DNA of 64,000 nucleotides, taken from NCBI GenBank assembly GCA_008632985.1, contig QPGO01000002.1:186001-250000 (forward strand), read 5' to 3'. The notes beneath the pieces are model-generated. The model had not been told where the DNA came from. It worked only from the letters and a program-made list of their open reading frames with translations, and did no database searches. The DNA comes from Psammoneis japonica. Taxonomy: Eukaryota. A program made the translations under genes and the position numbers. This document shows, in pieces, positions 10,501-52,209 of the stretch. The number at the start of each line of letters is the position of its first letter. Position 1 is the stretch's first letter.

Positions 10501-10791
10501 GGGGTCTGAGTTGACACCCGACCGTGTGGTTCACACATTGGCAGAATCAATTGACAGAAAAACAAAGCATCCCGATTTTTCATCCGTTGTTTGAAGGGTA
10601 AACAGTCATTGACATCCCGACTAAAACCTCTGAGNTAATCATCAATGATTATTGGATCTTTCCGTTGAACGGCTGACGGCTACGGTGGTGGAAAAGCCTN
10701 GGACTGAATCCAGGGTTTTTCGGGCGCCCAGACATGAAACTTGGTAACGAATGATGTAAGTAAAATTGCGTGATGGAATGGCACTTTCAAA

Positions 10792-24890: not shown

Positions 24891-25676
24891 TCAACAAGCG
24901 GCTTCCTGTTCCGTAGTCGCGTGTGTATCTTCAAGAACTCCAACAAAGTGCGTAACGATACCATGGTCATTAATAAGCGGAGCAACGCGAATGTAATTCT
25001 CAAAGAACTCGCCGTCTCGGTTACGATTCGTAAGATAGGTCGCAACGGGTTGATTGGACCGCAGCTTTTGTTCCATGCTCTCGAGCGACGGCCCTTGTGT
25101 AAAGGAGCCTTGAATACCAAGAGACGAAAAGGTCTCTCCTCGAGCTTCTTGCTGAGAATATCCGCATAAGTCTTCCCAGCAGTGATTGACCCTCACGATC
25201 GTGAATGGATAATCGGCTTGGGTCACAACCACAGCATTCGAAAAGCCCCATTCATGCTCATCCTTCATGGCTTCCATGGCTTCCTCTACTGATCTGGGAA
25301 AGGACGAAAAGTCGCCGATATCGGAAGTGAATTTGTCGTGGAAACGAGCACGAATACGAATGCGGGCGCCTTCAAGTAAAGAATTATCAGGCTCCCTTTT
25401 CATGGTGTAGCCAGCCATTGCAATGTTGCTACCCGCACTAGCCATGGATGCGACAGAATACTTCTTGACCACTGAATCGTGAAGTCGGCGTCGTGCGGCA
25501 TCTAAGTTTGTCTTGGCTGGGATGAATGATGCGGCAATAGAATGCTTTTCGTGTTTGGGTTGCTCCATGACGCTCACAGTAGGAAACTTGGCTTTGAATC
25601 CTGCTCGCAGACGAAGACGAGCGGCTTCCAGAGCCGCCGACTGCTTCATAAGTCGAGATGTCATGCAAGTCATCAT
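24891..25676 (-). CDS. PAS (LOV-like) domain protein
   Basis: C-terminal AVVVT..PFTIVRVN..WEDLCGYS..E..G..LTNRNRDGEFFENYIRVAPL..VTHFVGVL; lacks the NCRFLQ cysteine. Confidence 0.85.
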   Translation of the reverse strand: MMTCMTSRLMKQSAALEAARLRLRAGFKAKFPTVSVMEQPKHEKHSIAASFIPAKTNLDAARRRLHDSVVKKYSVASMASAGSNIAMAGYTMKREPDNSLLEGARIRIRARFHDKFTSDIGDFSSFPRSVEEAMEAMKDEHEWGFSNAVVVTQADYPFTIVRVNHCWEDLCGYSQQEARGETFSSLGIQGSFTQGPSLESMEQKLRSNQPVATYLTNRNRDGEFFENYIRVAPLINDHGIVTHFVGVLEDTHATTEQEAAC

Positions 25677-25971
25677 TGTCTTTTCCGCTGTGTTGCCACG
25701 AATTATGAGAAGAATAGTGTCAGTCGGTTCGAATAGCGGAGAGGAAGGATGGTGTCAAAAAGTGACGCCTGGTGTCATTGCGGTTTTCGTTTTTGATATT
25801 TTTAGTCGTGGATGAAATGCCACCAAAGTCGACAGACAAACAAACACCGAAACTTGCCGCCGACGAAGAAAAAGTACGTCACCGCAAACAACCAACAACA
25901 TGCCATGAAGCGAACGGCAAAACAATCAGGTGTTGTTTAGTTCAACTCGCACTGCACAGTAGAAAAGTGTC

Positions 25972-27737
25972 ATGCCGTCCAAGCCGAAAAAGATCATCAA
26001 CGATCCAGCCGATTCTGTCGATGAATTTATTGCTGGTCTACTTTTGCAATATCCGACTCGCCTCGTGAAATTGAAAAATCATCATGTTGTGCTCAAGAGC
26101 AACTTGAAGGCTGGAACGGGCGTTCAGATTCTCAGTGGCGGCGGTAGCGGACATGAACCGAGTCATGCAGGATGGATAGGTGACGGTATGCTCAGTGGAG
26201 CCATTCTAGGAGGAATCTTTGCGTCTCCCTCTGTCGCCGCCGTCTTGGCTGCAATTCGTGCCGCTTCGTGTGGGAAAACAAATCCCGTTCTGCTAGTGGT
26301 GAAGAATTACACGGGCGACCGTTTGAACTTTGGAATGGCATGTGAGCGAGCCAATTCGGAAGGCATTTCCTGCCAAATGGTGGTCGTAGCCGACGATACG
26401 GCCTTGGAGAGAACCAAGGGTATCACTGGAGCTCGAGGCGTTGCCGGAACCGTTCTTGTTCACAAGATTGCAGGAGCGGCGGCTGCCGAAGGGAAATCTT
26501 TACAGGACGTGGCAAACTTGGCTACGTTGACTGCAAAGCATATGGAACGTTGGGTGTGGCACTTGATGCAGTCACGGTGCCTGGTGCAGCGGCGGTCAAC
26601 GATCGTCTGGACGATGATAACACGATTGAAATTGGTCTCGGAATTCATGGCGAAGCTGGAATGAAGCAGTCCGCGCTTTTGACGAGCAACGAACTTGCAA
26701 AGGAAATGATTGATACGATTCACAAGTATGGACGTGTCGATGAATCGGAAGCAGTCGTTCCCATGTTTGAAAAAGGAGACGATCTCTGTGTCCTCGTCAA
26801 CAATTTGGGTGGGACGTCTAATTTCGAAATTTCAATCTTGACCAACTCCGTTTTGGACTATCTGGAAACGCAACATGGTTGCACAGTGACTCGTATTTTT
26901 GTAGGTAGCTACATGACTTCATTTGATATGCATGGTGCGTCCGTCACAGTCTTGAATCTGTCCTCATCAAACGTCACGGAGCTACTTGATGCCGATACCA
27001 CAGCTTTGGCGTGGTCGCCGTGTGATGTCTGGAACAAAAATAGCGCTCGTCCGTCCTTGACGGAGCTTCCCGAAGTTTCGATTGATGTCACAGTAGAAAC
27101 CAGTGAGTTGCCGCCCATTGAGATTGACAATTTTGAAGCAACCGCCTCTGCAATGGTTACAGCCGCGGCTAAGGCACTAGTGGAGTCGGAGCCGCTCTTG
27201 ACCAAATACGATACTATTGTCGGCGACGGTGACTGCGGCATTACAATGAAACGAGGTGCTATGCAGCTCTTGGAAGGATTAGAAGCCAACACTCTGAATA
27301 CTACGCATCCAGTTCTACTATTTAGTTCCATGGGGGACGCTGTCTCCGCCAGCATGGGAGGGACATCAGGTGTATTGTTGGAACTTATGCTGCGAAAGAT
27401 CAGCTCAACCCTTGCCAGATCTGTCAAGATTGATTTGGATACCATGTGTCAAGCGTTTTATGAAGGTGTTCAAGTGGTATCGCTTTACGGAGGGGCGACT
27501 ATTGGTTCTCGTACAATGCTTGATTCCATGATGCCCGCCGCTGACGCCTTGGTGGAGACCAAGTCCCTGGTCTCCGCAGCAACCAAAGCACGACAAGGCG
27601 CTGATGGAACTGCCAAAATGGGTGTTGCGAATGCCGGGCGGTCAAATTATCTTTCGGAAGAAACCCTTGCAGGCACGCCTGATCCGGGAGCTGTAGCCGC
27701 GGCTGTCGTGCTGGAAGCCTTGAGCAAAGCATTGTAA
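25972..27737 (+). CDS. DAK: Dihydroxyacetone kinase / triokinase (Dak1+Dak2)
   Basis: SGGGSGHEP, VKNYTGDRLNFG, GLGIHGEAG, GDGDCG, MGGTSG, GRSNY, PDPGA; one frameshift near 26548 (probably a missing G). Confidence 0.95.
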
Positions 27738-31710: not shown

Positions 31711-34180
31711 GAGCACAGTCCACAAGGGAGGGGGGCGGCAGAATGTTTTGTGGCTCTGTCTCAGGGAGCCAACCCTTGCTTGCCTTGCAAAGCTTCCAGT
31801 GACATTCACCATTCAATCATGTCAGAAAGAGTGCAGAATTTGATGGCTGCACCCCTGAGGAAGGCCACACAATATTCAAAAAAGCACTCTGACAAGACAG
31901 GCGAAGCACTCCATGATGCTCTTGCAGAGGACATCTGCACCATGAAGGGTGCAACCGCCAAGGACAAAGTGGCAGCACCAATGCCAGCAAAGTCAGCTTT
32001 TCATGAAAAAATGCATGGCAATGGACATGCATGATGGGCACAACTGACAGTTCTTGAAGAGCACAACAAAAACTTGGCTCAAAAGGAGCCAGGCCAGTGC
32101 AAGAGCCTGCAATGTCGGAAATGTCGCAAATTGTCATGGAAGTGTGCACTCACTGCCAAAGAACATTGTGGACATTGCAAGCAACTCCAGAGTCCATGAG
32201 GGGCATTGGATCTGCTCATGAGCTGCTCAACATGCAGAGGACAGTGGCACACCTGACACTCTTTTGGGGAATTTGGTGCTTGCAACATGTCAAGCATCTG
32301 GGTTCTGTTGCATTTAATGGTTGCTGGCTTGTCTCTGTTTCATGCCTGTGTTGAGCAGGTTGCACGAACAACAAGGGCGGTCATGAGAATGGACCCAGCA
32401 AGTCACGCCTGGTGCGCACACATTGTTGTCGGAGAGCAACCAAGTTTGGTGACCTCATGTGTCTTGGTGGCAGGGGGGCAATGTCAAAATGGGCTCTTGT
32501 CAGCTTGCAAAGTCAATTGCTTGCAAAAGGAGGGCACTGAAGATTCATTGCATGGCAATGCAAAATTGCATTTGAGAGATGACACATGGTTCTCATGACA
32601 AAATCCACTGACTGGCAAGCAACCTCCAATGTTGAGAGCAGATGACACTCTTCCAGATCTGTTGAATGATTGTGCATCCACAACAGACTTGAAAAGGCTG
32701 TCAACCAAGGAGGCAAAGGCTCATGACATCAGTCTTTTGCATGACAAAGCAAAGCACAAGAGCCCATCTGCTGAAAGAGAGAGACAATCCATGGCGTGCA
32801 ACAATGACAGTGTGGCAAATTGTGTGCAAGCAACACAAGTGGCTCTAGAGCCAACACCCTCATCATCAACCATTGGCCCAGTCAGAATGGCATCTGACAT
32901 TTGACACACACCAAGAGCACAGCATCTCCCAAAGAGCACAGGGCAGATGTCATTGCCATCAAAGCAATTTTTTCCCATTCTTTGGTTTCAACCCTTTCAA
33001 ATTGCTTCATCCAAAGGGTGGCGCCAACAGAGTCGAGGGGAAAAAGATGCCAATTGGACCTGCATCATGTCTTGATCATTTTGAGAACAGCAGTCACCCC
33101 GGTGCTCTTGTCCATTCTTGTGAACAGCCCAAGGAGGAGGAGATGGCAAAAAACGGATTTGGAAAAAGTCAATTGCGCCAAATGCACAAATTGCCAAATG
33201 ATGGGAATCGAACCAGCACGGAGCACCTGGAGCTGGAACAGGCCTGCAATGGACAGCCCAAGGAGGTGATGTCATGGCAGCTGGAGTCCATGCAAGCAAA
33301 ACAGCCTGACAATTGTGGCCAAGGGAGCATGAGGGCAGAAAACTCAGATGAGGTCCCACAAAGAAATGGACGTTGCCCATTGTCAGAAGCAGGGGATTCA
33401 TGTGCAATTGTCAAAAAAACAAAATGACCACATGAGCAATCTGCAACCACCAGCGATGCCCAGCCAAAAAGAAAGCCAGGATGCATTGTTGTCACAAACA
33501 GCACTGCAACAACAACACAAATTGCAATGGCTTGTGTGAAGCATGTGGTGCATCTGATGCACTCTGGTGCAGGACAGTCTGCCTGCATTTTGTGGATCAC
33601 TTGCCAGTGCTTCCTGGCAATCCAAGTGCCAACCATTTAAAAACTCATGTGGAAAAAAGCAGTGGGTTCATTGGGAGACTGCTGATCATCTTGGGTTTTG
33701 AATGGTCAGGTGCTGGACTGATCACCTTGCACAACCTTGACTGCGTTGCAATCAGCACAAAATGGAGCACATGAAGCCAGCAACTCTTGATGTGATGGCA
33801 CCAACATCTGATGGAACGACAGCAATGGAAAAGGTGGCAGTTGACCCCTTGTTGGCTCCTGCAACTCTTGGTGCTTTGAGTTTCAATGCACTGACAAAGG
33901 GCACTCACATGTCCAGCAGAAATGGTGCAGAGCGCGAAAAGCTTTGTTGATGCTGCAATCCCAGATTTCTCTTGTAAAGGAGCAGCTTCTGGAATCATGC
34001 AACTGGCTAAAAAGTTCAAAGCTCAGTGTGTGGGGATGAGACGAGCGCATCCAAGCCACCCAAAATCGATTTGCTCAATTTGAGCCCAATTGAAGTCAAA
34101 TGATGGACTGGATTTGGAAGACTTAAAGTGCCTGTTGTGCTGCAGCATCATTTGTTGTGAGGGCAACTTTGACGAGATGG
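31380..34180. mobile_element. TpA/CpG-depleted degenerate block
   Basis: Same composition as 1-7810; Tyr-poor spurious ORFs. Confidence 0.5.
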
Positions 34181-34200
34181 CAGAGACTAATACAACTAAC

Positions 34201-37182
34201 TTATTCTAGAGACGACTGGTTGGATGGTTTGTCAAGAAGCATGTCCAGCTGCTCTCTCGCTTCTTCATACAGCAACTTCTCTTTGCGCATAAAACGAAGC
34301 ATGTTTAGCTCAGTCCGTGAAAGTGACTCAAGGGGAACTTCATTGCGCATCCCCAACCTGTGCTTGCCAAGAACTTCATGCCGGTGGATCCTTTCGTCAA
34401 GAAACTTCCTGAGCAGATCGTAACCATCTACAACATCTCTGCTTTCATCTTGTGCTTTCTCCATCTCTGCCTTGATTATGAGGAATTTGGCAACCTTGTC
34501 GAGCGAGTCGCCATGGATGCCCCCAATACAGAAAGAAGGACTTAGAGAGTCGACGTCGATCTCCGAAAGTCGTTTCAAACAATCTTCTGTTTCATTTTGC
34601 GAGAGAATCAACGTTGGAATCGATAAGCTGTCGACAAGCGCGCAATCATAACTGTTGTTCTCCAACAGGAAGCCGTGATGTGTCATATACACGTAGTTTG
34701 ACTGCGCGTAGTTTTCCTCGACGCGGTCTCCTTCGTTAAAGCTACGTGGGGCCGTCGACACACTCGCCGTTCCTTCATCGTTCAGCTTCACGTCGTGCTC
34801 CCACATGAGTTCCCCGTCGTCATTGGGACGCTCATCGCAATTGATGTTATCAACCAGGGGATGCAAGTGCGATTCGACGTTCAAGGGGATTCCACGCGTA
34901 CGGTGAATATTGAAAGCCCAAATATATTTCTCCATATCAAGCATGATAGAAGGTCCCATAGCTTCAACTAGATCCACGTTCGTGGACAACATCTCGAAGA
35001 TATCACGAGCATGCTTCTGGCGATTCAACATGTAGCCTCGAGTATCAGATCCGGCTAGCATCTCCAATTGCTCCTTTCTTAAGAAGAACGGATACATCAC
35101 TTTCACTTCTTCCGGCGATGGAATCAAGTTTAGATATGGCCACCACCGACTCTCCTCCCGTAAAACAAAGTACTCATACATCAGAAATATCTCTAAGCAG
35201 TGCTCACAATCGTTCTCTCGATCCATCGTTTGCACCACAGCCTCAAGCGCTGGGTTTTTTGGAAAGGATAGATGATGTCGACTTACAGTACCGGAGATGG
35301 GGTATGAGAAGTAAACCTCACCTTGCTTGATTTTCTCCTTGGCAACAACTCCAGCCCTCATACCACTGTCGCCAATAAACCTCACTTCGACTTTTGACAC
35401 ATTTGGAGAAAACGATTCAATAAACGAGTTGAAAGAATCAATATCGGTTTGAGTGAGGCGTCTTGGAGAACCATCTTCGACAGGAACAGTACGACAAAAC
35501 CCTGTTTCGCTCCCACTACATTGGTCGATCGAATCTTCTTCATTGTCCGCCGCTGAGAAACCTTTAGCCAGTAGAGTGAGAACGTGCTTGTCAATAATGC
35601 GTAATTGGATTGCAACGTTTGCTCGCTCAATACTAACCCCTTCAGGTATCCAGGTGGAAAGGGAAGCGAAGTACTCAATGTCCTGTTCCAAAATTGTTTT
35701 CGCCGAGTCCAGCAGCCTTCTCGCTGCTCCCTGCAGCATTTTGTGCACTCGTTCCTCCGCGCCTTGATATCGAGTACATAGCGCTCGCACCAGCTCACGG
35801 TCGGGTTCTTCATGGTCAAGGGCCTCAAAGCACGGTCTATCCGGCCCATCGTCGTCACGTAACATTGCTATCATGGCCAAGCGACCCGCATCGCGATTGC
35901 TTGACAAAGTTCCATCCGCCCGAACCCAAACATGTTCGGGTACGAAATCGTCGCGAGTTGCGTTCCTGAGATAGTAATTGCTTGAGTCCTTCTCTCCATC
36001 CCATAAGTATGACGTTGGAATAGTTACGTAGTGGTGTTGGGTAATGTAGGGGCCTTCTGGATCCGTGTATTCGTCAGGAATGAATCCACCAGTTTCCACA
36101 AAATGACCAACAAGAACGGGGCCGTAGTCTTCAAAGATTTGCTGGTTCGGTAGCACCGGGCGATCTGCACGAACGTTGTAGACCGTGTTGTCCTCATTAA
36201 AGTTGTGATAGAGCCCAAACGGACCATGGTAGTATATGTTACCGTCTTTTGTCAGAGAGCCGGCTGGAGGTGATGGCGAGTGGTTCAGCAGGTCTGCCAT
36301 GGGCATCATCACGTGCACCGGGCCTCCATCCATGCTCATGACGCGAGACTCCACAATGGCGAAAAAGTGGTGGAAGTCCAACCAAACAAAAGAGCAAAAG
36401 ACACCATCCATGGGTATGTTCTGTTCATTTTCCCTGTCCAGGTTAGCCCTTCCCTTTGTGAGTACATCCCACAACCCTAGAGCTTCAATTTCAGAGAAAG
36501 CCGACCTTAGTACCTCCTTTCGATCAACAACTGTCTGCTTCATGTAAGAAAACGTGTCAATGTTTTCAAGCAGAAGAGAATCCCATTCGAGTTCGCTAAA
36601 CGTGTCAAACCTCGGAGCCAATGTCTGCGGGAGAATATCCAAGTAGGGAGCAAAGTCAGAAGTAGAATGAAAGCACTGCTCAATCATCAATCGAATAGCC
36701 AAGATGATGTTTTGCTGGGTTTCTTGTTCCAGAGCGGATAAGATGCTACCGAACTTGTCAATAATTGTTTCATTCGATGAAGATTCCGGCGTATCTTGAA
36801 CTTCTTTTTCGTTCGATGCTTCGATCCATTTCTCGAATGCTTCAACTGTTTCGTTGGCGTGCACAAAGAGCTTCTCGGGGACTGATAATAGAACGTCTAG
36901 CTGCTGGATTGCCGACGTTTGACTCCTATTCTTCTCTGCGCCCGGAATCGTCGGTTTTGCCACCAACCCCAAGCCATTGTAGTCTTTCAGAGCTTCAATG
37001 CCAACCGACGGAGAGATGAGTCCTCCGTTTCCCTCAAACCAATAGCGAAAGATATCTACCTTCTCTTCCACTGATGTGCCGGATGCATCGCCTTCAGCTA
37101 AAGCAACGGAGGATACACCGAAGAACGCGAGGCACAGAAAGAGGCAGAAGAAGAATGGACTCATTGGTTTTGATACAAGCAT
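34201..37182 (-). CDS. Secretory-pathway tandem SET-domain (Rubisco LSMT/SETD3-like) lysine methyltransferase
   Basis: Intact ORF; signal peptide-like MLVSKPMSPFFFCLFLCLAFFGVSSVALA; SET1 GLGLVA..FAPYLDILP..MPMADLLNHS..IFEDYG; SET2 MRAGVVA..SRWWPYLNLIP..PLVDNINC..ENYAQSNYVYMTHHGF. The ORF track extends to a non-ATG start at 37305. Confidence 0.9.
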   Translation of the reverse strand: MLVSKPMSPFFFCLFLCLAFFGVSSVALAEGDASGTSVEEKVDIFRYWFEGNGGLISPSVGIEALKDYNGLGLVAKPTIPGAEKNRSQTSAIQQLDVLLSVPEKLFVHANETVEAFEKWIEASNEKEVQDTPESSSNETIIDKFGSILSALEQETQQNIILAIRLMIEQCFHSTSDFAPYLDILPQTLAPRFDTFSELEWDSLLLENIDTFSYMKQTVVDRKEVLRSAFSEIEALGLWDVLTKGRANLDRENEQNIPMDGVFCSFVWLDFHHFFAIVESRVMSMDGGPVHVMMPMADLLNHSPSPPAGSLTKDGNIYYHGPFGLYHNFNEDNTVYNVRADRPVLPNQQIFEDYGPVLVGHFVETGGFIPDEYTDPEGPYITQHHYVTIPTSYLWDGEKDSSNYYLRNATRDDFVPEHVWVRADGTLSSNRDAGRLAMIAMLRDDDGPDRPCFEALDHEEPDRELVRALCTRYQGAEERVHKMLQGAARRLLDSAKTILEQDIEYFASLSTWIPEGVSIERANVAIQLRIIDKHVLTLLAKGFSAADNEEDSIDQCSGSETGFCRTVPVEDGSPRRLTQTDIDSFNSFIESFSPNVSKVEVRFIGDSGMRAGVVAKEKIKQGEVYFSYPISGTVSRHHLSFPKNPALEAVVQTMDRENDCEHCLEIFLMYEYFVLREESRWWPYLNLIPSPEEVKVMYPFFLRKEQLEMLAGSDTRGYMLNRQKHARDIFEMLSTNVDLVEAMGPSIMLDMEKYIWAFNIHRTRGIPLNVESHLHPLVDNINCDERPNDDGELMWEHDVKLNDEGTASVSTAPRSFNEGDRVEENYAQSNYVYMTHHGFLLENNSYDCALVDSLSIPTLILSQNETEDCLKRLSEIDVDSLSPSFCIGGIHGDSLDKVAKFLIIKAEMEKAQDESRDVVDGYDLLRKFLDERIHRHEVLGKHRLGMRNEVPLESLSRTELNMLRFMRKEKLLYEEAREQLDMLLDKPSNQSSLE

Positions 37183-37353
37183 TTTGTTTATATGGTTTTT
37201 ATGTTGCTTGTTCTCTCTCTCTCCACTCTCCGCCCGCCACTCAATAACAACGATTGACATCATTCCTGCCATGTATAAAAATTTGCATCTACTGCTTTCG
37301 TCCAATTTGAATTGATGGGACGAAGTGGGAGAGAATGGCTCTGCCTAATGGAC

Positions 37354-37580
37354 TCAACGGAAAACATGTTTATAAGAATATTTCCGTTGTAACGAGTTCC
37401 TTATCTAATTCCGTAAGAGCGGTGATAATTATCTATATATTCGTATAGTATGTATACATGTTTAAAAAAGAAGTAGTATCAAATAAAAATCTTTCAACGG
37501 AAATTATGCTTTTTATAAAAATGAATATTACTTAGAATTGCAAGAGAAGAAAGATACAGTAATAGGCCATTCAACGGAAA
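37354..37580. promoter_or_regulatory. AT-rich divergent promoter with four CAACGGAAA motifs (MSA/MYB-like)
   Basis: TCAACGGAAA at 37354, 37494 and 37571; reverse TTTCCGTTG at 37381. Confidence 0.6.
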
Positions 37581-37712
37581 CTTTGTTCTTGTTAAAAATC
37601 TAAAATTTTTTGGTGTGCGCATGAATCAGAATCTGATCGTCCTTTCACAGTTGCCGCACCTCTTGCCACAAAAACACAAACTTGCAACCTTCAAGCAGTC
37701 TCCGTCGCAAGC

Positions 37713-38661
37713 ATGAAAATCGCCGCCATACTTGTTCTCATTGCCTCCCTCGCTGTGGCGTCTGCGTCGAAACTTCGTTTCGGAAAGCCTGGTGGTGACG
37801 TGACCGACGAAGCCGAGAACCATGTGAGTCTTTTTGGCACCGTGCGCGACGAGGTCGAGAGGAAGTCATTTGCTGGTTTTTTGGCAGTGCTCTCAATTTC
37901 ATTTCGTCCCACTTTTCTTGTGTTCCCGCCAGGCATCTCATCATCGTGTTTTGCAAGCACACGGTGGCAGCAGTAGAAGCAAGGGCAAGGGCGGAAGCAG
38001 CATGATGGGCTATGGCGGCAGCACCAAGGGCAGCATGGGTGGCTATTACTACGGCAGCAAGGGCATGGGCTATGGCGGCAGCACCAAGGGCAGCATGGGT
38101 GGCTATTACTACGGCAGCAAGGGCATGGGCTATGGCGGCAGCACCAAGGGCAGCATGGGTGGCTATTACTACGGCAGCAAGGGCATGGGCTATGGCGGCT
38201 ATTACTACGGCAGCAAGGGCATGGGCTATGGCGGCAGCACCAAGGGCAGCATGGGTGGCTATTACTACGGCAGCAAGGGCATGGGCTATGGCGGCTATTA
38301 CTACGGCAGCAAGGGCATGGGCTATGGCGGCAGCACCAAGGGCAGCATGGGTGGCTATTACTACGGCAGCAAGGGCATGGGCTATGGCGGCTATTACTAC
38401 GGCAGCAAGGGCATGGGCTATGGCGGCAGCACCAAGGGCAGCATGGGTGGCTATTACTACGGCAGCAAGGGCATGGGCTATGGCGGCAGCAAGGGCATGG
38501 GCTATGGCGGCAGCACCAAGGGCAGCATGGGTGGCTATTACTACGGCTCCTACAAGGGCAAGGGCAGCAAGGGTGGCTATTACCACAGCTACTCCAAGTC
38601 CACCAAGGTAAATCGTGAACTAGATGCCGATAACTCTGTCGAGGAAGACCACGAGTGGTAG
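37713..38661 (+). CDS. Secreted Gly/Tyr/Ser/Lys/Met-repeat protein, cingulin/silaffin-like biosilica protein (279 aa spliced)
   Basis: Signal peptide MKIAAILVLIASLAVASA; phase-0 intron 37824-37932 (GTGAGT..CAG); RVL and REL (RXL) sites flank GYGGSTKGSMGGYYYGSKGM repeats; acidic tail. Confidence 0.85.
38005..38548 (+). repeat. Coding tandem repeat, 60-bp and 36-bp units
   Basis: Near-perfect GGCTATGGCGGCAGCACCAAGGGCAGCATGGGTGGCTATTACTACGGCAGCAAGGGCATG units. Confidence 0.95.
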
Positions 38662-39059
38662 TTGCTCCTCTTTTCAAGAGCGTCACACGCTCAACTGCGG
38701 CATTTGGTAGTGCTGAGGGTCGAGGGATGGTTTATATGTTTTTTAAATAGCAACCACTGGTTTGGCGATGGGAGGCTTGCCATAGAGGAATATCATGTTT
38801 GTATAATAATTGCATTTGCATCTTCCAGTTCTACTGTAGCTTATTGCTTTGCCTCTGCAAGTTTCCATGCTCGACATTGTCTACGAGGTAGCCATAACCA
38901 ACACAGAGACGTACGATGTGAATAAACGAAAGTATTTTTGCATGAAAGGCATGCATTTGCTTTGATGACACATTGTGTTTCTTGATGCGATCAAGCAGTG
39001 TTTGGTGCATAGAGTTTCACCAACACCCGATGCCTCGTGTCGTTTCAAAAGGGTAGTTG

Positions 39060-39705
39060 AAAGTAGTCATGATAATGGTAACAGATTATAACGCTCGAGT
39101 TTTTGCTTTGACGGTGAGTCAAAACAGTCTCTAACTGCGACTCCGTGACGGCGAAGAACGGGACTTTGGTTGGCTGGCTCGCAACAGCAACAGGACGCAG
39201 CCTGATGCAATGGGGAAGGAGGAATTTCTCACAGGAGAGTCTGAACGATGATGGCTTGGGTCGCACAAGCAGATGGATCATTCATGACCATAGCGCGACA
39301 CTCTAGAGAAATCAGGTCGAAAAATGCAGCAAGCGGGCGGAAAATATATACTAGACGCTTGAGAGTGGCAAAACGTAACCCAATTCTCTTACTTGGGTGT
39401 ATTTCAGCAAGCGCTTGAAGCATGCCCACATCTGCCAAACCCAAATCCGTCGAGAGTACTCGCATTCGTGCCGTGAAATATGCATGAAACCGAGAGAAAA
39501 AATCACAAGGATAGAGGGCTGGTTGACATAAGTGCTGTAGTCACATTGAAAACATTAAAAGCCCATCCAATTCACTTATCTGGGTACCACAGAAAATATT
39601 AAAGCCATGCCTCCTCCATCAAACCCTAATGCAAAGAGGGTACCCCCATCTCCGAAGAGAACTCGTTATTCGTCCAAACGGTGGTCGTGCGCAAATGTTC
39701 CAGCT
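39060..39705. repeat. Unmutated paralogue of 31050-31710 (possibly a decayed minus-strand coding segment)
   Basis: See 31050-31710; retains TpA and CpG. Confidence 0.8.
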
Positions 39706-40634
39706 CGGGAAATACAATAGACACGACGAGACATTGAAACACCAAGGAATGTGAGTATCATTTTCATTATGTACGAGACGGATACACCTTAAATCAGAGG
39801 TAATCTTGCCTTCAAACTTCAAAGCGCTCCTCCGCCCCCCAACTCTGCTTTTAGCGTCGCTCCGCAAAAATGTGGACCGTAGCGGATGACGTTCCGGCCC
39901 TGGAAAACACCTGGACAGCAAGGTGTCATAGAATTATTGTCTGTGTGTATCATTTATAGTTTTTTCAAGGAGGGTGTGATTCTTAACTTTCGCTCGCCTG
40001 CGCTGTTGTGGCAATAATGAGGGAAGATGGTGTCGTGAGTCAGAAGACGACAATTGTTTGTACAAACAACGTATTGAAGACAGTCAAAATGAAACGCGTG
40101 CCCCACACACACTGAACACACACACGCGCTGTGCTTTCATATCCTAAAAGGAGCGGGGAGATACTCCTTCTACCTTTAACAGGCGATTCGAACGTTGCAT
40201 TCACCCGTCGAGCTGCTGACAGCTGACAGCTGACAGCAAAAATAGAGCAGTAATGTCGAATTTCGCCAGCAGTCAGAAAATGCCAAATAGGGATTTGACA
40301 CTGACCTTTTTCTCCATCGATTGGTTGTTGATGATTTCCATTGCCTGTGGATTACGACGCGACGACAATGCGTGCAGGGACCGCAACGGGAGGACTCCAT
40401 GGTGGCGACAGCTTCCTCGCCCCAATGAAACTGCGGCCAGCGCCATACTGAATGTACGTGTTTCTACGCCAGTTTGAAATTTTTCATTTCCAAATATCTT
40501 TTATTAGAGTATGTAGGTGATAATTTTGCGACGGCGGTGGGTAATCACAACGCGCGTTGAATACAACGCGCTAGCTCATACTCTCATCATCTCTGCCCTA
40601 TCTGCCTCCGACACACATTGCGAAATTGCACACC

Positions 40635-43600
40635 ATGGCAGACTCTACGGCTTCTGTCGAGCTTGATGAGTCTGGCGGACAAGTACAGTCAGTTTCCGAC
40701 AGCTTGGTGGCAACCGGTAATAACGAGCCCGAGACTTACGACGAGACGACTCCAGCTTCAAATACAAACAATGGCCCAAGCCAACAGGACGACTTGACGG
40801 TCGGATCATCGTCGTCGCCTTTTTCTGCTCTAACTGTTCATGACCACTACAGCGTCAAGATCCCATCCAGTGCACTCCGACTCCGTTCAAGCGTTGTGCA
40901 CGTATATGAACAGCGCAACAAACAGATTCATCTCGAACAGCGTTCCAAAGACATGATGACAGTGAAGAATGTCAGACAAACATCCACCTTTGGTCTGTAC
41001 GCGCTCCGTGCGACATATACCATGGTGGCCTTGTTAATGAGCGGATTCATGTTTGTCTTTTGCTTTCAGATTATTCTCTATCTCTTTTCCGATTTGGCAG
41101 TGGCAACGGGAACAACCGCTGCAGAAACAAGCGCAAAGGTTTGGGAGTTTATTGGGACAGTACTCGCGGTTCCTCTCTATGTATATGGATTGGCCAGTGC
41201 CATGTTGTTGGCCTTTTCCTTTTGTTATGAAGTATGGGGTGGTGGAGAAGAATACATTAAACCATTCTGTCTAGCGTTTCTGGGAATCAAGAGCGGAAAC
41301 AAGAGTGTCGTTGCAGAATGGATCTTCTTCTGGGTATTTCTAGGAATACCGGCGATTGTTGTATTTGTAACTCTGTTTGCCAAGCTCGATGATTGGTGGA
41401 CCATCTCGGCCATGGTCTGGTGCGGTTTGGTGTTGCTACTTTACGTTTTCTTTTGTTTCTCAGTTATCTACTACGAAACAACGTCTTGTCTCAAGTTGGT
41501 GCAAGCCTCAACTGCTTTGGACGACGGCAACGACGAGAAGAATGAGGACGACAATGCTGAAAAGCCAAGTGTTGCCTCGTATTGGAGCCTCCTGTGCCGT
41601 CTGATTCTCATTCGTCAAGTTATTTTTCTGTCAGGTGTCCGGAAGAGCATGTATTTTGTGAACGGCACAGTCAATGACGATATACTCGAGCAAGACGAGG
41701 CAAGAGAAGTACCGTCCCAAGACGACGTCAACGACACTGTGTCGTCCGAGCGCAAAACTCCCAAGAGGAGAAATGCAATTCGAAACTCGGCGGGTCTGTG
41801 CACTCGCCTCACCTTACTTTTGGCAAGAATGAAATGTCGATGCACTCGATGGTGTGGCTTCTACACCAAGTTGGATCCGCCCAGTCGTCTCTACACTTTG
41901 GAAGAGGTGCTTGGAACCAAGTCGTACGTCACGGTGAACTCGTGGTCCTTGGATAAGATTTATTGCCAAATGGGACAAAAGTCTGTCATGGTGCTGGCAG
42001 GTCCATCCGCCTTGCTACCAAACCAAATCAAGTCCAGTTTCATCTGTGCGTTACTTGCTAACTTGTTTGGGCTACTGATTATCATAAGTCTTTTGGTATG
42101 GCTAGACTTTGCTGCTGGAGCCATTATTATCATTGCGCTTTTGGTTGCGGCGTGTATGTTTCCCGGCATACGGACATTTGTGGTAATGTATCGTCTCTAT
42201 CGAGATGTGCAAGGAGAAATTGGCGGACAAGCTAGCGATCAAGATGATGAAGTGGACCTTGTCGCAATGGAAGATCTTGAAAAAGAAGGAGGCGAGTCCG
42301 AAGACAAGCAAGATGGACAGCGGTATCCGCGCCACGGTAAGGAAGACGAAGATGAGGGAATACAACAAATTTGGGAAACGTACCGCGTCACGCGTGCCAC
42401 AAATTCCTTCTGCTGGATCATGTTTATTGTTGGAGTCTTTCTCTTTTTTGCGTGGCCGTTGGTCTCGTTGTTCATAATCGGAAACCATGCCGTGGCATCG
42501 CTTTTTGTCGTTACAGGATTTCTTTCTGCTTTGCAGATTTACATGGATCCTTCTGTCATACTCGCAGAGATTGGATCCTTGGAAAAGAATGCGCGCATGG
42601 GTCAACAAACCGAGGAAGAGGAATGGAAGACAAAATCGCGACTAACCCAGATTCTGGCAGCATCAACCAGAAACGATCGCGCCGAGCCTGGGCGATTGTG
42701 TTTGCGTTCCTTATTCTTGTTTTCCTTGTCATGTGCATCGTCGCAGTTAACCAACACACAGACAACGAGCTATTGGTTCTGATTCTGTGCTTCTCGAGGA
42801 TTTTGAGTACCAACCACTTCCAGATATGAGGTACCCAACCTGCAATCTCAAGAAAGGTCTGGGGATACCCACCGACGTCGAGTCAACTTCAGCGGGTGTG
42901 GATCTAATCGACTATGTATTCCTTGCAAACGTTGCATATCTGAGCCCTTCAGTGACACAGTCATTTCTTGATGGATGGTTCGGGCCAGGATTCGCCAAAG
43001 ATGAACAAGACATCGTAAATGAGTTCAAGAAAGTTGCGACGGACGGCTCGACTAGCGTTACTTACAAACTTATTTCATTTCCTGGACTTTCCCCGGAGTT
43101 TGGAGTCGTCGCTATTCGAGGTTCAGTTGCGATGGCCGACTGGTACGTAGAGTCCCACCGCTAGAGCCCTTGCTTCGAGCATTTCACTCATTGACAGTGT
43201 ATGACCTCTTCACCTTATGCGCTTATAGGTTTGTGAATGCGCAGCTTTGGAGTGCCGCTGCACTTGCGCAAGTAATCCGCGCCTTGCTGCCGCTTGGGCA
43301 ATTGTTCTGGACCCCCATCTTGCACCTTCTTATACGAGGAGCAACTTTTGTTGGTCATTATAGTCTTGATCAAGTTTCATATTACAAAGAGACGACCAAA
43401 TTTGTTGAAAGCTTACAAGGAAGTTCCGAGTTTTCGTTGGTGCATGTCACTGGTCAATCTCTTGGCGGTGGGTTGACCATTATTACCGGTGCGCAAACTG
43501 GGGCACCCGCTATTGCCGTTTCCGGGCCAAACGCTATGCTTTCGCGCCTAACGTTTGAACCAGAGTTGAGCGAAGATGAACTCAACAGGTTGGTCATGAA

Positions 43601-47400: not shown

Positions 47401-47410
47401 CTCTCCAGAT

Positions 47411-48780
47411 GCTCTCCTGTTGAGCTCCATTTTGCCATCGTCATCAAGCAAAGATGGAAACTGTCACAAATTCCTTTGAAGATTGAGAACAAAATGCACA
47501 ACAATGTGATCAAGAAGTTTCACCACAGAAGCAATCACAGGCCACAGGCATGGCTGGTCGCATCAATGCCAGCATGCGCACACCCTGAGAAACATTCCAA
47601 GAAGGAACAATGAAGTGCAAAATGACATCGAGTGTCGACTTCCTGTTGTTCAGCATTCTGAGCCTTTTTGGTCACATCAGAGCATCCACTCTTGCAGCAA
47701 GGACCAATGACAGCTGATGATCAGACAGTGACCCATCACTTGTGCAACCGCCTGTGCTCACCTGAGAACTGCCACTGGCTGCTCAGGATGCAATGACCCT
47801 CATTCCTTGTTTTCTCCTCTCTTGATGAAGTCCCAAAGCCCTGGGTCATGCTCCAGGAATCCAACAAAAATGCAAGCAATGCTCTCCTGTTGAGCTCCAT
47901 TTTGTCGTCATCATCAAGCGAAGACTGCAACTGTCGCGGATTCCTTTGAAGATTGAGAATGAAATGAACGACAATGCAAGCAAGAAGTTTCACCGCAGAA
48001 GCAATCAGGCCACGGGTGCGGCCAGTTGCATTGGTGCCAGCATGCGTGCCCCGAGAAACATTCCAAGAAGGAACAATGAAGTGCAACATACAATGTCGAG
48101 CATCGACTTCCCATTGTTCAGCATTCTGAGCCTTTGCGGTCACATCAGAGCATCCACTCTTGCAGCAAGGACCAACAACAGCTGACAATCAGACAGCAAC
48201 CCAACACTTGTGCATCTGCCTGCGCTAAAACCTGAGAACTGCCACTGGCTGCTCAGGATGTGATGATGCTCATTCCTTGTTTACTTCCGTCTTGACGAAG
48301 TCCCAAAGTCCTCCAGAGGTCATGCTCCATGAATCCAACAAAAATGCAAGCAATGCTCTCCTGTTGAGCTCCTTGTCGTCTTCGTCATCGAGCAAAGACG
48401 GCAACTGTCATGGTGTCCTTTGAAGATTGAGAACAAAATACAAGAGGATGCAATGAAGGAGTTTCATCAAAGAAGCAATCAGGCCACGGGTGTGGCTGGT
48501 CGCATCAATGCCAGCATGCGTGCCCCGAGAAATGTGCCAAGACAGAAAAACAATGCACAGCGTCACATCAAGTGTCAACGTCCCATTGTTCACATTGTTT
48601 GGAGCCTTTGTGGGCATCTCAGAATGTCCCCTCTCACAGCAAGGGCCAACGACAGACAACAATCAGACAGTGCTGTAGCCTGAAACTTGCACGTCTGCCA
48701 GGCTCACATGAGAACTGCCACTGACTGCTCAGGATGCAATGATCCTCATTCCTTGTTTTCTCCTGTCCTGATGAATTGCG
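47411..48780. repeat. Tandem repeat, about 470 bp x3, overlapping the 3' end of the LRR gene
   Basis: GCTCTCCTGTTGAGCTCC at 47411, 47881 and 48355; CTCATTCCTTGTTT near 47799, 48269 and 48745. Confidence 0.9.
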
Positions 48781-50088
48781 GATTGTTCATCAAGAACCAA
48801 AACATGAAGTTCTCATTGCTGCGCGGACCTGCCAAGACGTGCGGCCAAAGAGCTGCAGGTGCGTCGTGGCGATGCAGCAAGTGTCTTCCTGCTTTGTTCA
48901 TTTGAATGCAGCAATCTACTTCAGCTTGCATCTTGTCTTGCGGCTTCTTGCGCATCGGCACAACAGCACGTTCAATGGAGTGCAACGCATCTCCAATGTC
49001 CTTGGGTGTGGTTGTGAGCGACGAACAACCATCCAAGTCTAGATGACAAAGACTCGGAAGCTCAAGAATTTCTTTTAGAGTTGCAGTCAACTGCTCGCAC
49101 CAAAGTTCCAAGTGCTCCAACTTTGTGAGCAATCCCAGCTTGGGAGGCAGCTCAACCACTTCGAAACACGAGGTGACATCTGACGCAGTGAGATTGACCA
49201 GATTGCTCACGGCGTTTTGCAAGAATTCATCCAAGCCGTGGACGCGGTTTGGAAGTGTGAGTTCTTGCAGCTGTGTCAGCTTCCCAATCTCAATCGGCAG
49301 TTTTGTGAGTTTCTCGCAATGTCTGAGATTGAGTTCCTCAAGTTGCTGTAACTTTCCAATTTCAGGGGACAAGTGAGTGAGGGAGTTGCACTCACGCAAA
49401 TGCAGCTCCTCCACCAAGTTTGTCAATTGCCCCCATTGATCTGGAACCTGTCCAAGAATTTTGCACTCTGGAGTGTGGTGTCTCAGTTGCTGCAGCTCTC
49501 AGATCCCCACTGTTGGCAACTCTTCGAGGCTTTCGCATTCGAAAATGATCAGGAGTCTGAGTTGTGTCAACCACCCAATTCCCGCGGGCAAACTTTTGAA
49601 AGCCCTGCAAGTTTGCAAGTTTAGCTCCTTCAACTTTGTCAAACTGCACATTTCGTCGGGCAGTGTAACAAGGGTGTTCGTGTCACATAAATTGAGTGCT
49701 TTAAGTTGCTGCAGCTGCCCGATTTCAGGTGGGACCCACTCAAGCCCGATGCAGCAGTCCAAGGTCAAAACGACAAGTCGATGCAACAAGCCAATTTTGC
49801 GCGGAAGCTCAGCCACAATGCCCGAGCTCAAACTCAGTTTTCTTGCATTGACACACTTTTTGTGACCTTGTTCATGATCACCGTAAGAGACACAATCGCG
49901 GTTTTCTGACAACGACCGCTTTGACTCTCCCGTGGCTTGTGTCAACGCAGCGAATGTTCGGTCGGAAAGACGATCGTCGTCGTCGTCCACATTGTTGTTG
50001 TCTTGTTCCCTTGGAAACGCATTGTGAGAGCAAGGCACCCACTTAAAGCGAGCGTGTTGATAAAAGAAAAGCGACGATTTCAAATGCC
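48746..50088 (-). pseudogene. Leucine-rich-repeat protein, frameshifted and hypermutated
   Basis: LPxEIGxLxxLxxLxLxxC repeats in two frames; C-terminal MNKAGRHLL..LWPHVL motif; no Tyr in the last 226 aa. Confidence 0.85.
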
Positions 50089-50432
50089 ATTCACCGACCG
50101 CTGTGGGCCATCGTCGACAGCGATGAAATCACTGTTGTACCGGCTACTCTCTAGCAGTAGAGTATTTGGAACATAAAAGAAGCTGACGTCGATTGGACCT
50201 TCTGGGTCTCGTAACATCTTACGTACATGTACAGTACTGTATCCTACTGTACTGTACCGTACTGTACAAGACGCCTCATCGCCGACTCGTTGGACCGATT
50301 CGATTCGATTCGTTTGATTTGACATTCGACTGCGCCGCAACTGCTGCTGAATACTGAATACAGTAGCTAGAGTCTAGCCCTACTCCTCAATGCTGTAGAG
50401 TGCGATCTAATAAAAGTTAATATAGCTCTCCT

Positions 50433-51852: not shown

Positions 51853-52209
51853 ACTGAGATGTGGTATAGTAGGGTTTGCATCAAGTGGCTGATGGTGCTG
51901 TTGGTATGGTACTTGCAGAGTAGGAGAGAGTGCGAAGTGCGACCTATTTCGTTGTTCGTTGCGTTGGTTTTTGCGGGCTCTCCCACTCCCAACTCCCAAC
52001 ATCAGCATGCATTTTGCTTGCTGATAATCTCACCGTCTGTCTGTTGCAAAATTCCAAAATTTCAAAATAAAGCTTCGTGTATGAAGGAAATATATACCCG
52101 TCTGTCGTCGCAAAATTCCAAAAGGTTCTATCCTCGCGATAGATCTCGAAAGATTTCGTGGACGGCAATAAGCCGACAAGGCATTTCTCAAAGAAACACT
52201 GTTGCAACC

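What the first reader, a model, noticed from the sequence alone, without database searches (positions are those of the whole stretch)
34201..38661. Head-to-head secreted SET methyltransferase and cingulin/silaffin-like protein: possible enzyme-substrate biosilica module
Seen: a signal-peptide-bearing double-SET protein diverges, with about 530 bp between start codons, from a secreted protein with RXL sites around Lys-containing GSKG/STKG Gly-Tyr repeats. Known: silaffins and cingulins are RXL-processed and carry methylated or polyamine-modified lysines, and ER-targeted diatom-specific SET proteins have been proposed as the modifiers. Inference: a co-regulated writer-substrate pair, with the two SET domains possibly serving the two lysine contexts.
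Basis: partly seen in the sequence, partly recalled or inferred. Interest (0 to 1): 0.8.

Follow-up and report, generated by a model that had tools for sequence, protein, structure and literature searches.

The report
Lumenal double-SET methyltransferase beside Gly-Tyr-Lys repeat gene
A probable diatom gene for a secretory-pathway enzyme with two methyltransferase modules sits back-to-back with a gene for a secreted glycine/tyrosine/lysine repeat protein, a plausible but unproven enzyme-and-target pair for cell-wall building.

Summary
34201-37272(-) is an uninterrupted 1023-aa ORF. It has one N-terminal hydrophobic segment and two homologous Rubisco-LSMT/SETD3/SETD6-type SET modules (hhalign 98.8%; PDB profile hits; fold match).

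37713-38661(+) reads, through one predicted 109-nt GT-AG intron, as a 279-aa precursor:
- a signal peptide;
- a propeptide ending in RVL;
- a 223-aa Gly/Tyr/Ser/Lys/Met tandem-repeat core;
- REL and an acidic tail.

The writer-substrate reading is not supported beyond adjacency:
- None of 14 relatives with at least 2.6 kb of upstream DNA (9 distinct contexts) has such a neighbour.
- The repeat protein has no detectable relatives.
- Only 4 of its 27 lysines sit in the KXXK motifs that mark modified silaffin/cingulin lysines.
- The double-SET architecture is far older than the repeat gene.

New here: the 440-bp AT-rich intergenic region holds 4 of the window's 5 CAACGGAAA elements (Myb/MSA-like core). 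That makes shared regulation testable.

I read the pair as a BacSET-type lumenal methyltransferase next to an orphan cell-wall matrix protein. No RNA data could be obtained.

The parts
34201..37272 (-). Intronless ORF of 1023 aa (stop included) for a tandem double-SET methyltransferase. Alternative start codon at 37182 (993 aa).
   Evidence: relatives align over about 90% of the length.
37099..37155 (-). Single N-terminal hydrophobic segment. It is residues 40-58 from the first ATG, or 10-28 from Met31. It reads as a signal anchor or a cleavable signal peptide (...VALA/EG).
   Evidence: Kyte-Doolittle 19-aa maximum of 2.47. 11 of 13 relatives have a basic stretch followed by a hydrophobic segment, and 2 of 13 are signal-peptide-like.
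35560..37059 (-). N-terminal LSMT-like module: a SET domain plus a helical Rubis-subs-bind-like domain. Motifs are SRVM, PMAD, NH and FEDY.
   Evidence: The structure model is poor (pLDDT 58.7).
34204..35457 (-). C-terminal LSMT-like module: a SET domain plus a helical domain. Motifs are TRGI, PLVD, NC and ENY.
   Evidence: pLDDT 77.6; SETD3, LSMT and SETD6 at TM 0.62-0.67.
37273..37712 (.). Shared 440-bp intergenic region with 34.8% GC. It is a candidate bidirectional promoter.
37354..37580 (.). Cluster of four CAACGGAAA elements: three direct copies (37354-37363, 37494-37503 and 37571-37580 as TCAACGGAAA) and one inverted copy (37381-37389). The core AACGG is the Myb/MSA core.
   Evidence: The cluster holds 4 of the 5 copies of the 9-mer in 64 kb. 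For the 10-mer, 4 copies were found against 0.22 expected in the whole window.
37713..37823 (+). Exon 1 of the repeat-protein gene: an 18-aa signal peptide (...AVASA/SK) and the start of an acidic propeptide.
37824..37932 (+). Predicted intron of 109 nt (GTGAGT...pyrimidine tract...CAG). It shifts the frame so that exon 1 joins the repeat ORF.
   Evidence: read directly from the sequence. No RNA evidence was available.
37933..38661 (+). Exon 2. It runs from the end of the propeptide (RVL at 37945-37953) through the 223-aa Gly/Tyr/Ser/Lys/Met core to REL (38614-38622), a 12-aa acidic tail and the stop codon.
38005..38547 (+). Near-perfect coding tandem array with units of 60, 36 and 24 nt.

Best explanation
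These are two neighbouring, divergently transcribed genes, probably of a diatom, that belong to the same broad process of secretory cell-wall biogenesis. There is no demonstrated one-to-one relation between them.

Gene 1 encodes a BacSET-type protein methyltransferase. One N-terminal signal anchor or signal peptide puts two complete LSMT/SETD3/SETD6-class modules into the ER/Golgi/silica-deposition lumen. There it most likely transfers methyl groups from S-adenosylmethionine to lysine epsilon-amines of passing secretory proteins.

Gene 2 encodes an orphan precursor. It is imported by a signal peptide and trimmed at RVL and REL. This releases a 223-aa Gly/Tyr/Ser/Lys/Met repeat core that would become part of an organic, possibly silica-associated, wall matrix.

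The 440-bp AT-rich spacer with four CAACGGAAA (Myb/MSA-like) elements probably drives both genes together. The repeat protein may therefore be one of many substrates, not a dedicated one.

Shown: the ORFs, the fold class, the internal duplication, the motifs, the repeat anatomy and the element cluster. Inferred: localisation, splicing, RXL cleavage, lysine specificity, co-expression and wall association.
For: SET class and duplication.

Catalytic residues: the catalytic Tyr is invariant in both modules, as FEDY in 9 of 9 rows and ENY in 7 of 7 rows.

Specificity positions. These are the columns that line the SETD3 pocket, Asn255 and Trp273; SETD6 and LSMT have Phe and Ala there (passage in PMC6684798). 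Here they are Met + Ala in the N module and Ile + Val/Leu in the C module. That is the lysine-enzyme pattern, not the histidine-enzyme pattern.

Secretory N-termini are conserved in 13 of 13 relatives examined.

Literature: BacSETs are described as diatom-specific. 24 of them peak at cytokinesis together with silicanins, frustulins and other wall genes in Seminavis (passage).

Repeat protein anatomy and composition. 2 of its 4 Arg form RXL exactly at the two borders of the core. From L = 2.2%, I expect about 0.09 RXL by chance (my arithmetic).

Comparable diatom proteins: Tyr/Lys/Gly-rich secreted proteins that were tested ended up in an insoluble biosilica-associated matrix (AC3362; passages in PMC4220933).

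Element cluster. AACGG is the MYB3R-bound MSA core of plant G2/M genes (passage in PMC10905365).
Against: No RNA data, so the intron, the start codons and co-expression are all untested.

No signal-peptide or localisation predictor was available.

The SAM-pocket Asn-His dipeptide is relaxed. In the N module it is NH in 2 of 9 rows and NY in 7 of 9. In the C module it is NC in 4 of 7 rows and NA in 3 of 7. One module, or both, could therefore be weak or non-catalytic.

The repeat protein does not meet the cingulin and silaffin lysine-cluster criteria.

Upstream regions of 14 relatives show no AACGG enrichment: 12 found against 9.8 expected. The promoter elements are therefore not a family feature.

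That the source is a diatom rests on one named relative, Chaetoceros tenuissimus at 27% identity, and on the family's description in the literature.
Confidence: 0.55

Rival explanations
1. Dedicated writer-substrate cassette. The double-SET enzyme specifically methylates the GSKG and STKG lysines of the neighbouring repeat protein. The two genes are kept together and co-regulated for that reason.
For: The genes are head to head, 441-531 bp apart. The shared spacer holds four clustered Myb-like elements. Both products are routed into the secretory pathway. The pocket residues are of the lysine type. One other relative, L020, also has lysine-rich or low-complexity secreted genes within 3 kb.
Against: 0 of 14 relatives with upstream DNA (9 contexts) has a comparable neighbour. 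The same composition screen flags about one such ORF per 64-150 kb both near relatives and in the window, so there is no enrichment. The tandem SET architecture predates the young orphan repeat. Only 4 of 27 lysines are in KXXK, the proposed recognition motif. BacSET families are large, 24 in one species, so chance neighbours are expected.
Confidence: 0.12
2. Chance neighbours with unrelated roles. The SET enzyme acts on other lumenal or wall proteins. The repeat protein is a Tyr-cross-linked structural, adhesive or mucilage protein (glycine-rich-protein or mussel-foot-protein style), or a phase-separating scaffold, with no role for methyl-lysine or silica.
For: Composition is G 37%, Y 20% and M 8.5%, with isolated lysines. 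The protein does not meet the cingulin and silaffin lysine-cluster criteria. It has no relatives. Amphora Tyr-rich proteins were first picked as adhesive candidates. About a quarter of adjacent gene pairs are divergent by chance (general knowledge).
Against: RXL bracketing of the core is typical of biosilica-associated precursors (passage in PMC4557024). The one Amphora Tyr/Lys-rich protein that could be localised was in the wall matrix, not in the adhesive. The promoter element cluster lies between the two genes.
Confidence: 0.2
3. The repeat ORF is not a gene. It is a minisatellite whose 12-nt-multiple units happen to stay open.
For: The array is open in 5 of 6 frames. There are no relatives. 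No RNA run was available. All unit lengths are multiples of 12 nt, so frame preservation needs no selection.
Against: An upstream exon encodes a textbook signal peptide. It is joined in the correct phase by a canonical GTGAGT...CAG intron with a pyrimidine tract. Non-repetitive RXL-containing flanks lie on both sides, followed by an acidic tail and then a stop.
Confidence: 0.07
4. The SET protein is an organellar or cytosolic LSMT/SETD3 orthologue, for example a Rubisco/aldolase or actin methyltransferase, and not a secretory enzyme.
For: The closest solved structures are LSMT, SETD3 and SETD6. Atlas neighbours are Rubis-subs-bind/SET clusters.
Against: The N-terminal hydrophobic segment is followed by an acidic sequence (Glu at +1), which is unlike diatom plastid presequences (recalled rule). 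11 of 13 relatives have a basic stretch plus a membrane anchor. The tandem architecture and identities of only 15-18% to those enzymes also argue against orthology.
Confidence: 0.03

Closest known systems
[quoted passage not shown] 2020, Mar Biotechnol 22:551). Seen only as cited and described in PMC11151724, PMC11554505 and bioRxiv 10.1101/2020.11.23.393678.
   Same: A SET-domain protein with a secretory N-terminus. Its relatives include a diatom protein. The proposed role is methylation of wall proteins or polyamines.
   Different: Direct homology to the published BacSET sequences could not be tested because the paper is not held. This protein and its relatives carry two complete LSMT-like modules in tandem. 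I could not check whether that is already described.
Rubisco LSMT, SETD6 and SETD3 (PDB 1mlv/1p0y, 3qxy, 6mbj)
   Same: The fold of each module is the same: a SET core plus a C-terminal helical substrate-binding domain. The catalytic Tyr is present. The N module shares LSMT's P-M-A-D-L-x-N-H-S stretch.
   Different: The module is duplicated in tandem. Targeting is to the secretory lumen, not to the plastid or cytosol. Identity is 15-18%. The His of the Asn-His motif is replaced in the C module. The substrates are unknown.
Y-type cingulins (CinY1-3) of Thalassiosira pseudonana
   Same: A signal peptide, RXL motifs, a highly repetitive sequence, and richness in Tyr, Gly, Ser and Lys.
   Different: Lysines are isolated: 4 of 27 are in KXXK here, against 19 of 22 in CinY2. 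There is no lysine-enriched region and no detectable sequence similarity. Met is 8.5%. Location is untested.
Tyr/Lys/Gly-rich secreted proteins of Amphora coffeaeformis (AC3362, AC714; PMC4220933)
   Same: Orphan, modular, secreted proteins rich in Tyr, Lys and Gly, with KG-type repeats. AC3362 lies in an insoluble biosilica-associated matrix.
   Different: There is no sequence relation. AC3362 is Pro-rich and much richer in Lys (15.5%).
Silaffins
   Same: A precursor with a signal peptide and RXL processing sites, and Ser/Lys/Gly content.
   Different: There is no pentalysine cluster: the tightest 5 Lys span 18 residues. Tyr and Gly dominate. Modifications are unknown.

Membership tests
SET methyltransferases of the LSMT/SETD3/SETD6 class | SET catalytic core recognisable by profile | tested here: met
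   Pfam SET scores 22.8 against a cut-off of 22.4 in the N module. Profile hits are SETD3 5e-13, LSMT 3e-11 and SETD6 6e-8 for the C module, and 5e-7, 6e-5 and 5e-4 for the N module.
SET methyltransferases of the LSMT/SETD3/SETD6 class | C-terminal helical substrate-binding domain after the SET core | tested here: met
   The C-module model aligns over 439-476 columns to whole SETD3, LSMT and SETD6 chains. In the N module, a helical stretch matches SETD3 residues 428-483, and Pfam Rubis-subs-bind scores E 0.047.
SET methyltransferases of the LSMT/SETD3/SETD6 class | Catalytic tyrosine (SETD3 Tyr312 equivalent) | tested here: met
   It aligns to the Y of FEDY in the N module (9 of 9 rows) and of ENY in the C module (7 of 7 rows).
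SET methyltransferases of the LSMT/SETD3/SETD6 class | Asn-His dipeptide of the cofactor pocket | tested here: inconclusive
   The N module has NH here and in 1 relative, and NY in 7 of 9 rows. The C module has NC in 4 of 7 rows and NA in 3 of 7. Asn is kept and His is not.
SET methyltransferases of the LSMT/SETD3/SETD6 class | SAM-dependent methyl transfer to protein Lys (or His) | not testable with these tools
   This needs an enzyme assay.
BacSET (diatom-specific secretory SET proteins) | N-terminal ER-targeting signal | tested here: met
   There is a hydrophobic segment in the window protein and in 13 of 13 relatives. This was judged by hydropathy and by eye only.
BacSET (diatom-specific secretory SET proteins) | Restricted to diatoms | tested here: inconclusive
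   The only named relative is from Chaetoceros tenuissimus. The 26 metagenome loci and 4 other proteins are unnamed.
BacSET (diatom-specific secretory SET proteins) | Sequence homology to the published BacSET set | not tested
   The defining paper is not held, and the preprint's supplements are closed.
BacSET (diatom-specific secretory SET proteins) | Expression together with cell-wall formation | not testable with these tools
   No RNA run was listed.
Cingulins (Y type) | Signal peptide and RXL motif(s) | tested here: met
   (RVL 42-44, REL 265-267). This depends on the predicted intron.
Cingulins (Y type) | Tyr-rich repetitive regions | tested here: met
   The core is 20.2% Tyr.
Cingulins (Y type) | Most lysines in K(X)2K motifs clustered into lysine-enriched regions | tested here: not met
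   There are two KXXK motifs (KGSK, KSTK), which cover 4 of 27 Lys and lie 8 residues apart. In CinY2, 19 of 22 Lys are in KXXK, and the motifs are no more than 4 residues apart (PMC9650480).
Cingulins (Y type) | Conserved 17-aa motif after the signal peptide / sequence similarity | tested here: inconclusive
   No relatives were found at E<=1e-3. Six compositional hits were rejected. The motif's sequence is in a supplement I did not see.
Cingulins (Y type) | Location in insoluble girdle-band microrings | not testable with these tools
   This needs tagging and fractionation.
Silaffins | Pentalysine cluster (5 Lys within 12-14 residues) | tested here: not met
   The smallest span of 5 Lys is 18 residues. 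The definition is from PMC9650480.
Silaffins | Methylated or polyamine-bearing lysines and phosphoserines | not testable with these tools
   This needs mass spectrometry.

The most novel reading that the evidence does not exclude
The pair is a genuine co-regulated writer-substrate cassette. A Myb-driven bidirectional promoter fires both genes at cell division. The membrane-anchored double-SET enzyme methylates the isolated Lys of the Gly/Tyr repeat core in the secretory lumen. It may also methylate the Met residues, since both pockets carry a hydrophobic residue where SETD3 needs Asn, as in the SETD3 N255V variant crystallised with a methionine substrate (title). Methylation would tune the charge and phase behaviour of a new, KXXK-independent class of wall-matrix protein. 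This would be the first genetically linked modification-enzyme/biosilica-protein pair.
Probability: 0.1. Interest if true: 0.75.

Novelty: new member of a known kind. Interest (0 to 1): 0.4.

Why it matters
The enzymes that install methyl-lysine on diatom silica-forming proteins have not been identified experimentally. I found no such report in my searches; secretory SET proteins are the standing candidates.

This locus offers a compact, testable case:
- an enzyme with two separable modules;
- a neighbouring simple-repeat candidate substrate, whose 20-aa unit can be synthesised;
- a 440-bp spacer with four identical elements that can be mutated in a dual-reporter construct.

Even if the pairing is by chance, two points are useful for the field. 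The tandem architecture with a conserved membrane anchor is one. The KXXK-free Gly/Tyr/Lys/Met repeat protein is the other.

Tried and rejected
- RNA evidence: none was listed for 33800-39200.
- Whole genome: not held.
- Complex prediction with the C module, SAM and a 60-aa repeat stretch: no verdict.
- Repeat-protein relatives:
  - The word-indexed search found none at E<=1e-3.
  - The exhaustive phmmer search gave 6 hits, E 1e-6 to 7e-4. I read 3 of the 6. All three were unrelated low-complexity repeats, and I rejected them as compositional.
  - The atlas search gave no usable hit.
- The 'shorter' search for single-module relatives gave 1 protein, which was uninformative. Single-module forms of about 540-580 aa do exist in loci L008 and L018.
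- The N-module structure model was too poor (pLDDT 58.7) for a fold search, so it was not searched.
- The bacterial promoter/terminator scan is irrelevant to a eukaryote.
- AACGG enrichment upstream of 14 relatives: 12 found against 9.8 expected, so there is none.
- An alternative 3' intron from the GT at 38609: the only nearby AG (about 38750) would add a Cys-rich tail that looks non-coding, by my reading. I judged it less likely. It is untested.
- Nemoto 2020 is not held.
- A text search of the silaffin review for a peptide context found nothing.
- A literature search for SETD3 double-mutant terms was unhelpful. One search found the useful paper.

Full report
**1. What is there**

The window is eukaryotic-looking nuclear DNA with 45-50% GC and sparse long ORFs. 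At 34201-37272 on the minus strand lies an uninterrupted 1023-aa ORF. At 37713 on the plus strand a short ORF begins with a textbook signal peptide. It runs into GTGAGT at 37824. A pyrimidine tract and CAG end at 37932, and from 37933 the frame of a long repeat ORF continues to a stop at 38659-38661. The intron is 109 nt and shifts the frame by exactly the amount needed. The spliced product is 279 aa. The two ATGs are 441 bp apart.

**2. The SET protein**

- *Sequence evidence for each half.* Pfam finds SET at threshold in the first half (22.8 bits against a cut-off of 22.4). Five database relatives at 26-28% identity cover 71-91% of the length. The only named one is a hypothetical / SET domain-containing protein of the diatom Chaetoceros tenuissimus.
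  - A profile of the six sequences hits SETD3 (5e-13), Rubisco LSMT (3e-11) and SETD6 (6e-8) in its second half.
  - A profile of the first half, built with ORFs from metagenome loci, hits the same three at 5e-7, 6e-5 and 5e-4.
- *Internal duplication.* The two half-profiles align to each other with hhalign probability 98.8%, E 6.5e-17, over 291 columns. 'Double SET' is therefore correct: it is an internal duplication of a whole LSMT-like module.
- *Fold.* An AlphaFold model of the second module (pLDDT 77.6) matches SETD3, LSMT and SETD6 over essentially their full chains (E 1.6e-16 to 8e-15, TM 0.62-0.67). That includes the helical substrate-binding domain. The first-module model was poor (58.7) and I did not use it.
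- *Active-site columns*:
  - The catalytic Tyr is invariant in both modules.
  - SETD3's histidine-specific Asn255 and Trp273 are Phe and Ala in the lysine enzymes SETD6 and LSMT (passage in PMC6684798). At those positions the N module has Met + Ala, within a stretch nearly identical to LSMT's. The C module has Ile + Val/Leu. I infer lysine rather than histidine specificity.
  - The His of the Asn-His cofactor motif is not kept (NY in most N modules, NC or NA in C modules). Full activity of each module is therefore uncertain.
- *Targeting.* There is a single N-terminal hydrophobic segment. 11 of 13 relatives examined have a 26-82-aa basic stretch before it, which is a signal anchor. 2 of 13 start with it, which is signal-peptide-like. 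The window protein can be read either way, depending on the start codon. Either reading puts both modules in the lumen. The sequence after the predicted cleavage site begins with Glu and is acidic. That is unlike diatom plastid presequences (recalled rule).

**3. The repeat protein**

- *Layout.* After an 18-aa signal peptide comes a short acidic propeptide that ends in RVL (residues 42-44). The 223-aa core follows, then REL (265-267) and a 12-aa acidic tail.
- *Core composition.* G 37%, Y 20%, S 15%, K 11%, M 8.5%. It is built from six 20-aa, three 12-aa and one 8-aa units.
- *RXL motifs.* The protein has only four Arg, and two of them form the RXL motifs at the two borders of the core. RXL is the proposed processing site of silaffins, cingulins, frustulins and silacidins (passage in PMC4557024).
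- *Repeat age.* The array is nearly perfect at the DNA level (96% at period 96), so it is young or homogenised.
- *Is it coding?* The array is open in 5 of 6 frames. The case for coding therefore rests on the signal-peptide exon, the in-phase canonical intron and the non-repetitive flanks.
- *Relatives.* None was found.
- *Lysine arrangement.* It is unlike cingulins and silaffins. Only 4 of 27 lysines are in KXXK, there is no lysine-enriched region, and the tightest five lysines span 18 residues. In CinY2, 19 of 22 lysines are in KXXK, and pentalysine clusters span 12-14 residues (passages in PMC9650480).
- *Classification.* The protein is cingulin-like in composition and precursor layout only. 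The nearest functional analogues are orphan Tyr/Lys/Gly-rich secreted proteins of Amphora. The one of these that could be localised sits in an insoluble biosilica-associated matrix (PMC4220933).

**4. Is the pairing meaningful?**

- *Synteny.* A scan of metagenome contigs gave 26 loci encoding relatives at 24-35% identity. 14 of the 26 have at least 2.6 kb upstream of the match. Judged by shared neighbour ORFs, they fall into 9 contexts.
- *Composition screen.* The screen looked for at least 4 Lys and at least 60% G+S+Y+K+T in a 60-aa window, in all six frames, over all 201,806 nt. It flagged three ORFs:
  - one is an alternative frame of the SET gene itself;
  - one is a Ser/Thr/Leu-rich stretch (L024);
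  - one is real (L020).
  The same screen flags only the repeat gene in the 64-kb window. There is no sign of enrichment near relatives.
- *Neighbours actually found*:

  | Loci | Neighbour |
  |---|---|
  | L007/9/11 | GH19 chitinase with CBM96 |
  | L007 | LRR protein |
  | L012/13/14/18 | unknown 598-622-aa type II membrane protein, divergent |
  | L010 | GrpE |
  | L017 | cytochrome b561-like |
  | L024 | EGF-like |
  | L020 | PT-repeat mucin-like type I membrane protein, head to head |

- *L020.* This is the one suggestive case. Besides the divergent mucin-like gene, an ORF 3 kb upstream has a signal peptide, several RXL motifs and a dense Lys/Ser cluster.
- *Limits of the test.* These relatives are too distant for firm orthology, and low-complexity genes turn over fast.
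- *Age argument.* The tandem architecture is shared with all these relatives while the repeat gene is a young orphan. That argues against the idea that the two modules evolved for its two lysine contexts.

**5. The spacer**

The 440 bp between the genes are 34.8% GC. They contain TCAACGGAAA three times in direct orientation and its core once inverted. 4 of the 5 CAACGGAAA 9-mers in the whole window lie here. No other 440-bp stretch of the window exceeds four AACGG cores, and only 0.8% reach four.

AACGG is the MSA core bound by MYB3R factors on plant G2/M genes (passage in PMC10905365). Diatoms have 3R-Myb factors (bioRxiv 10.64898/2026.03.25.714157). BacSETs and other wall genes peak at cytokinesis in Seminavis. 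Division-phase co-activation of both genes from this spacer is therefore a reasonable but untested inference. Upstream regions of 14 relatives show no AACGG excess (12 against 9.8 expected).

**6. Verdict**

The enzyme is a new member of the secretory diatom SET family, with a conserved tandem architecture. The neighbour is an orphan wall-matrix-type precursor that fails the cingulin and silaffin lysine criteria. The enzyme-substrate link is possible (about 0.1) but rests on adjacency and a shared, element-rich spacer only.

No RNA run was listed, no genome is held, and the complex prediction gave no verdict. The Nemoto 2020 paper and the supplements listing BacSET sequences could not be seen, so formal membership in that family remains untested.

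Noticed in passing
window 37354-37580: Four copies of CAACGGAAA (three direct, one inverted) lie within 230 bp of the shared spacer. Only one other copy occurs in the 64 kb, at 10659 on the minus strand. The element is a Myb/MSA-like core.
   Followed up: partly
L020:2704-4893 (-) and L020:1225-2307 (+): A SET relative lies head to head with a 730-aa PT-repeat, mucin-like type I membrane protein. 3 kb upstream is an ORF with a signal peptide, several RXL motifs and a dense Lys/Ser cluster, followed by TPPPTS repeats. This ORF is silaffin-like.
   Followed up: partly
L012:7417-9282 (-), L013:187-2052 (-), L014:2306-4099 (-), L018:7579-9402 (-): In four loci the divergent neighbour of the SET relative is the same 598-622-aa protein. 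It has a basic N-terminus, one membrane segment and a large domain with no Pfam match. It may be a lumenal enzyme of unknown family.
   Followed up: partly
L007:2796-6644, L009:5556-9410, L011:5573-9412 (+): In three loci a secreted protein of about 1280 aa lies upstream of the SET relative on the same strand. In L009, the one copy scanned against Pfam, it carries GH19 chitinase, CBM96 and SdrD_B domains.
   Followed up: no
L008:398-2014, L018:9722-11431: Single-module relatives of about 540-580 aa match only the first module plus its helical domain. The family therefore has both one-module and two-module forms.
   Followed up: no
window 38005-38547: The repeat array is free of stop codons in 5 of 6 frames. 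An ORF list alone would suggest several overlapping 'genes' here.
   Followed up: yes
window 47409-48775; 2629-3481; 18050-18389: Large non-coding-looking tandem repeats: 474 nt x 2.9 copies, 188 nt x 4.5 copies and 108 nt x 3.1 copies.
   Followed up: no
window 24894-27734; 48749-54094; about 10.7-11.1 kb: The other genes in the window are housekeeping-type: a PAS-domain ORF, dihydroxyacetone kinase (Dak1+Dak2 in two overlapping frames, suggesting an intron), LRR ORFs, a cyclophilin and a Hop/STI1 TPR protein (two frames). A run of 268 N lies near 10.7-11.1 kb. The 735-aa ORF at 40575-42779, downstream of the repeat gene, has no Pfam match.
   Followed up: partly
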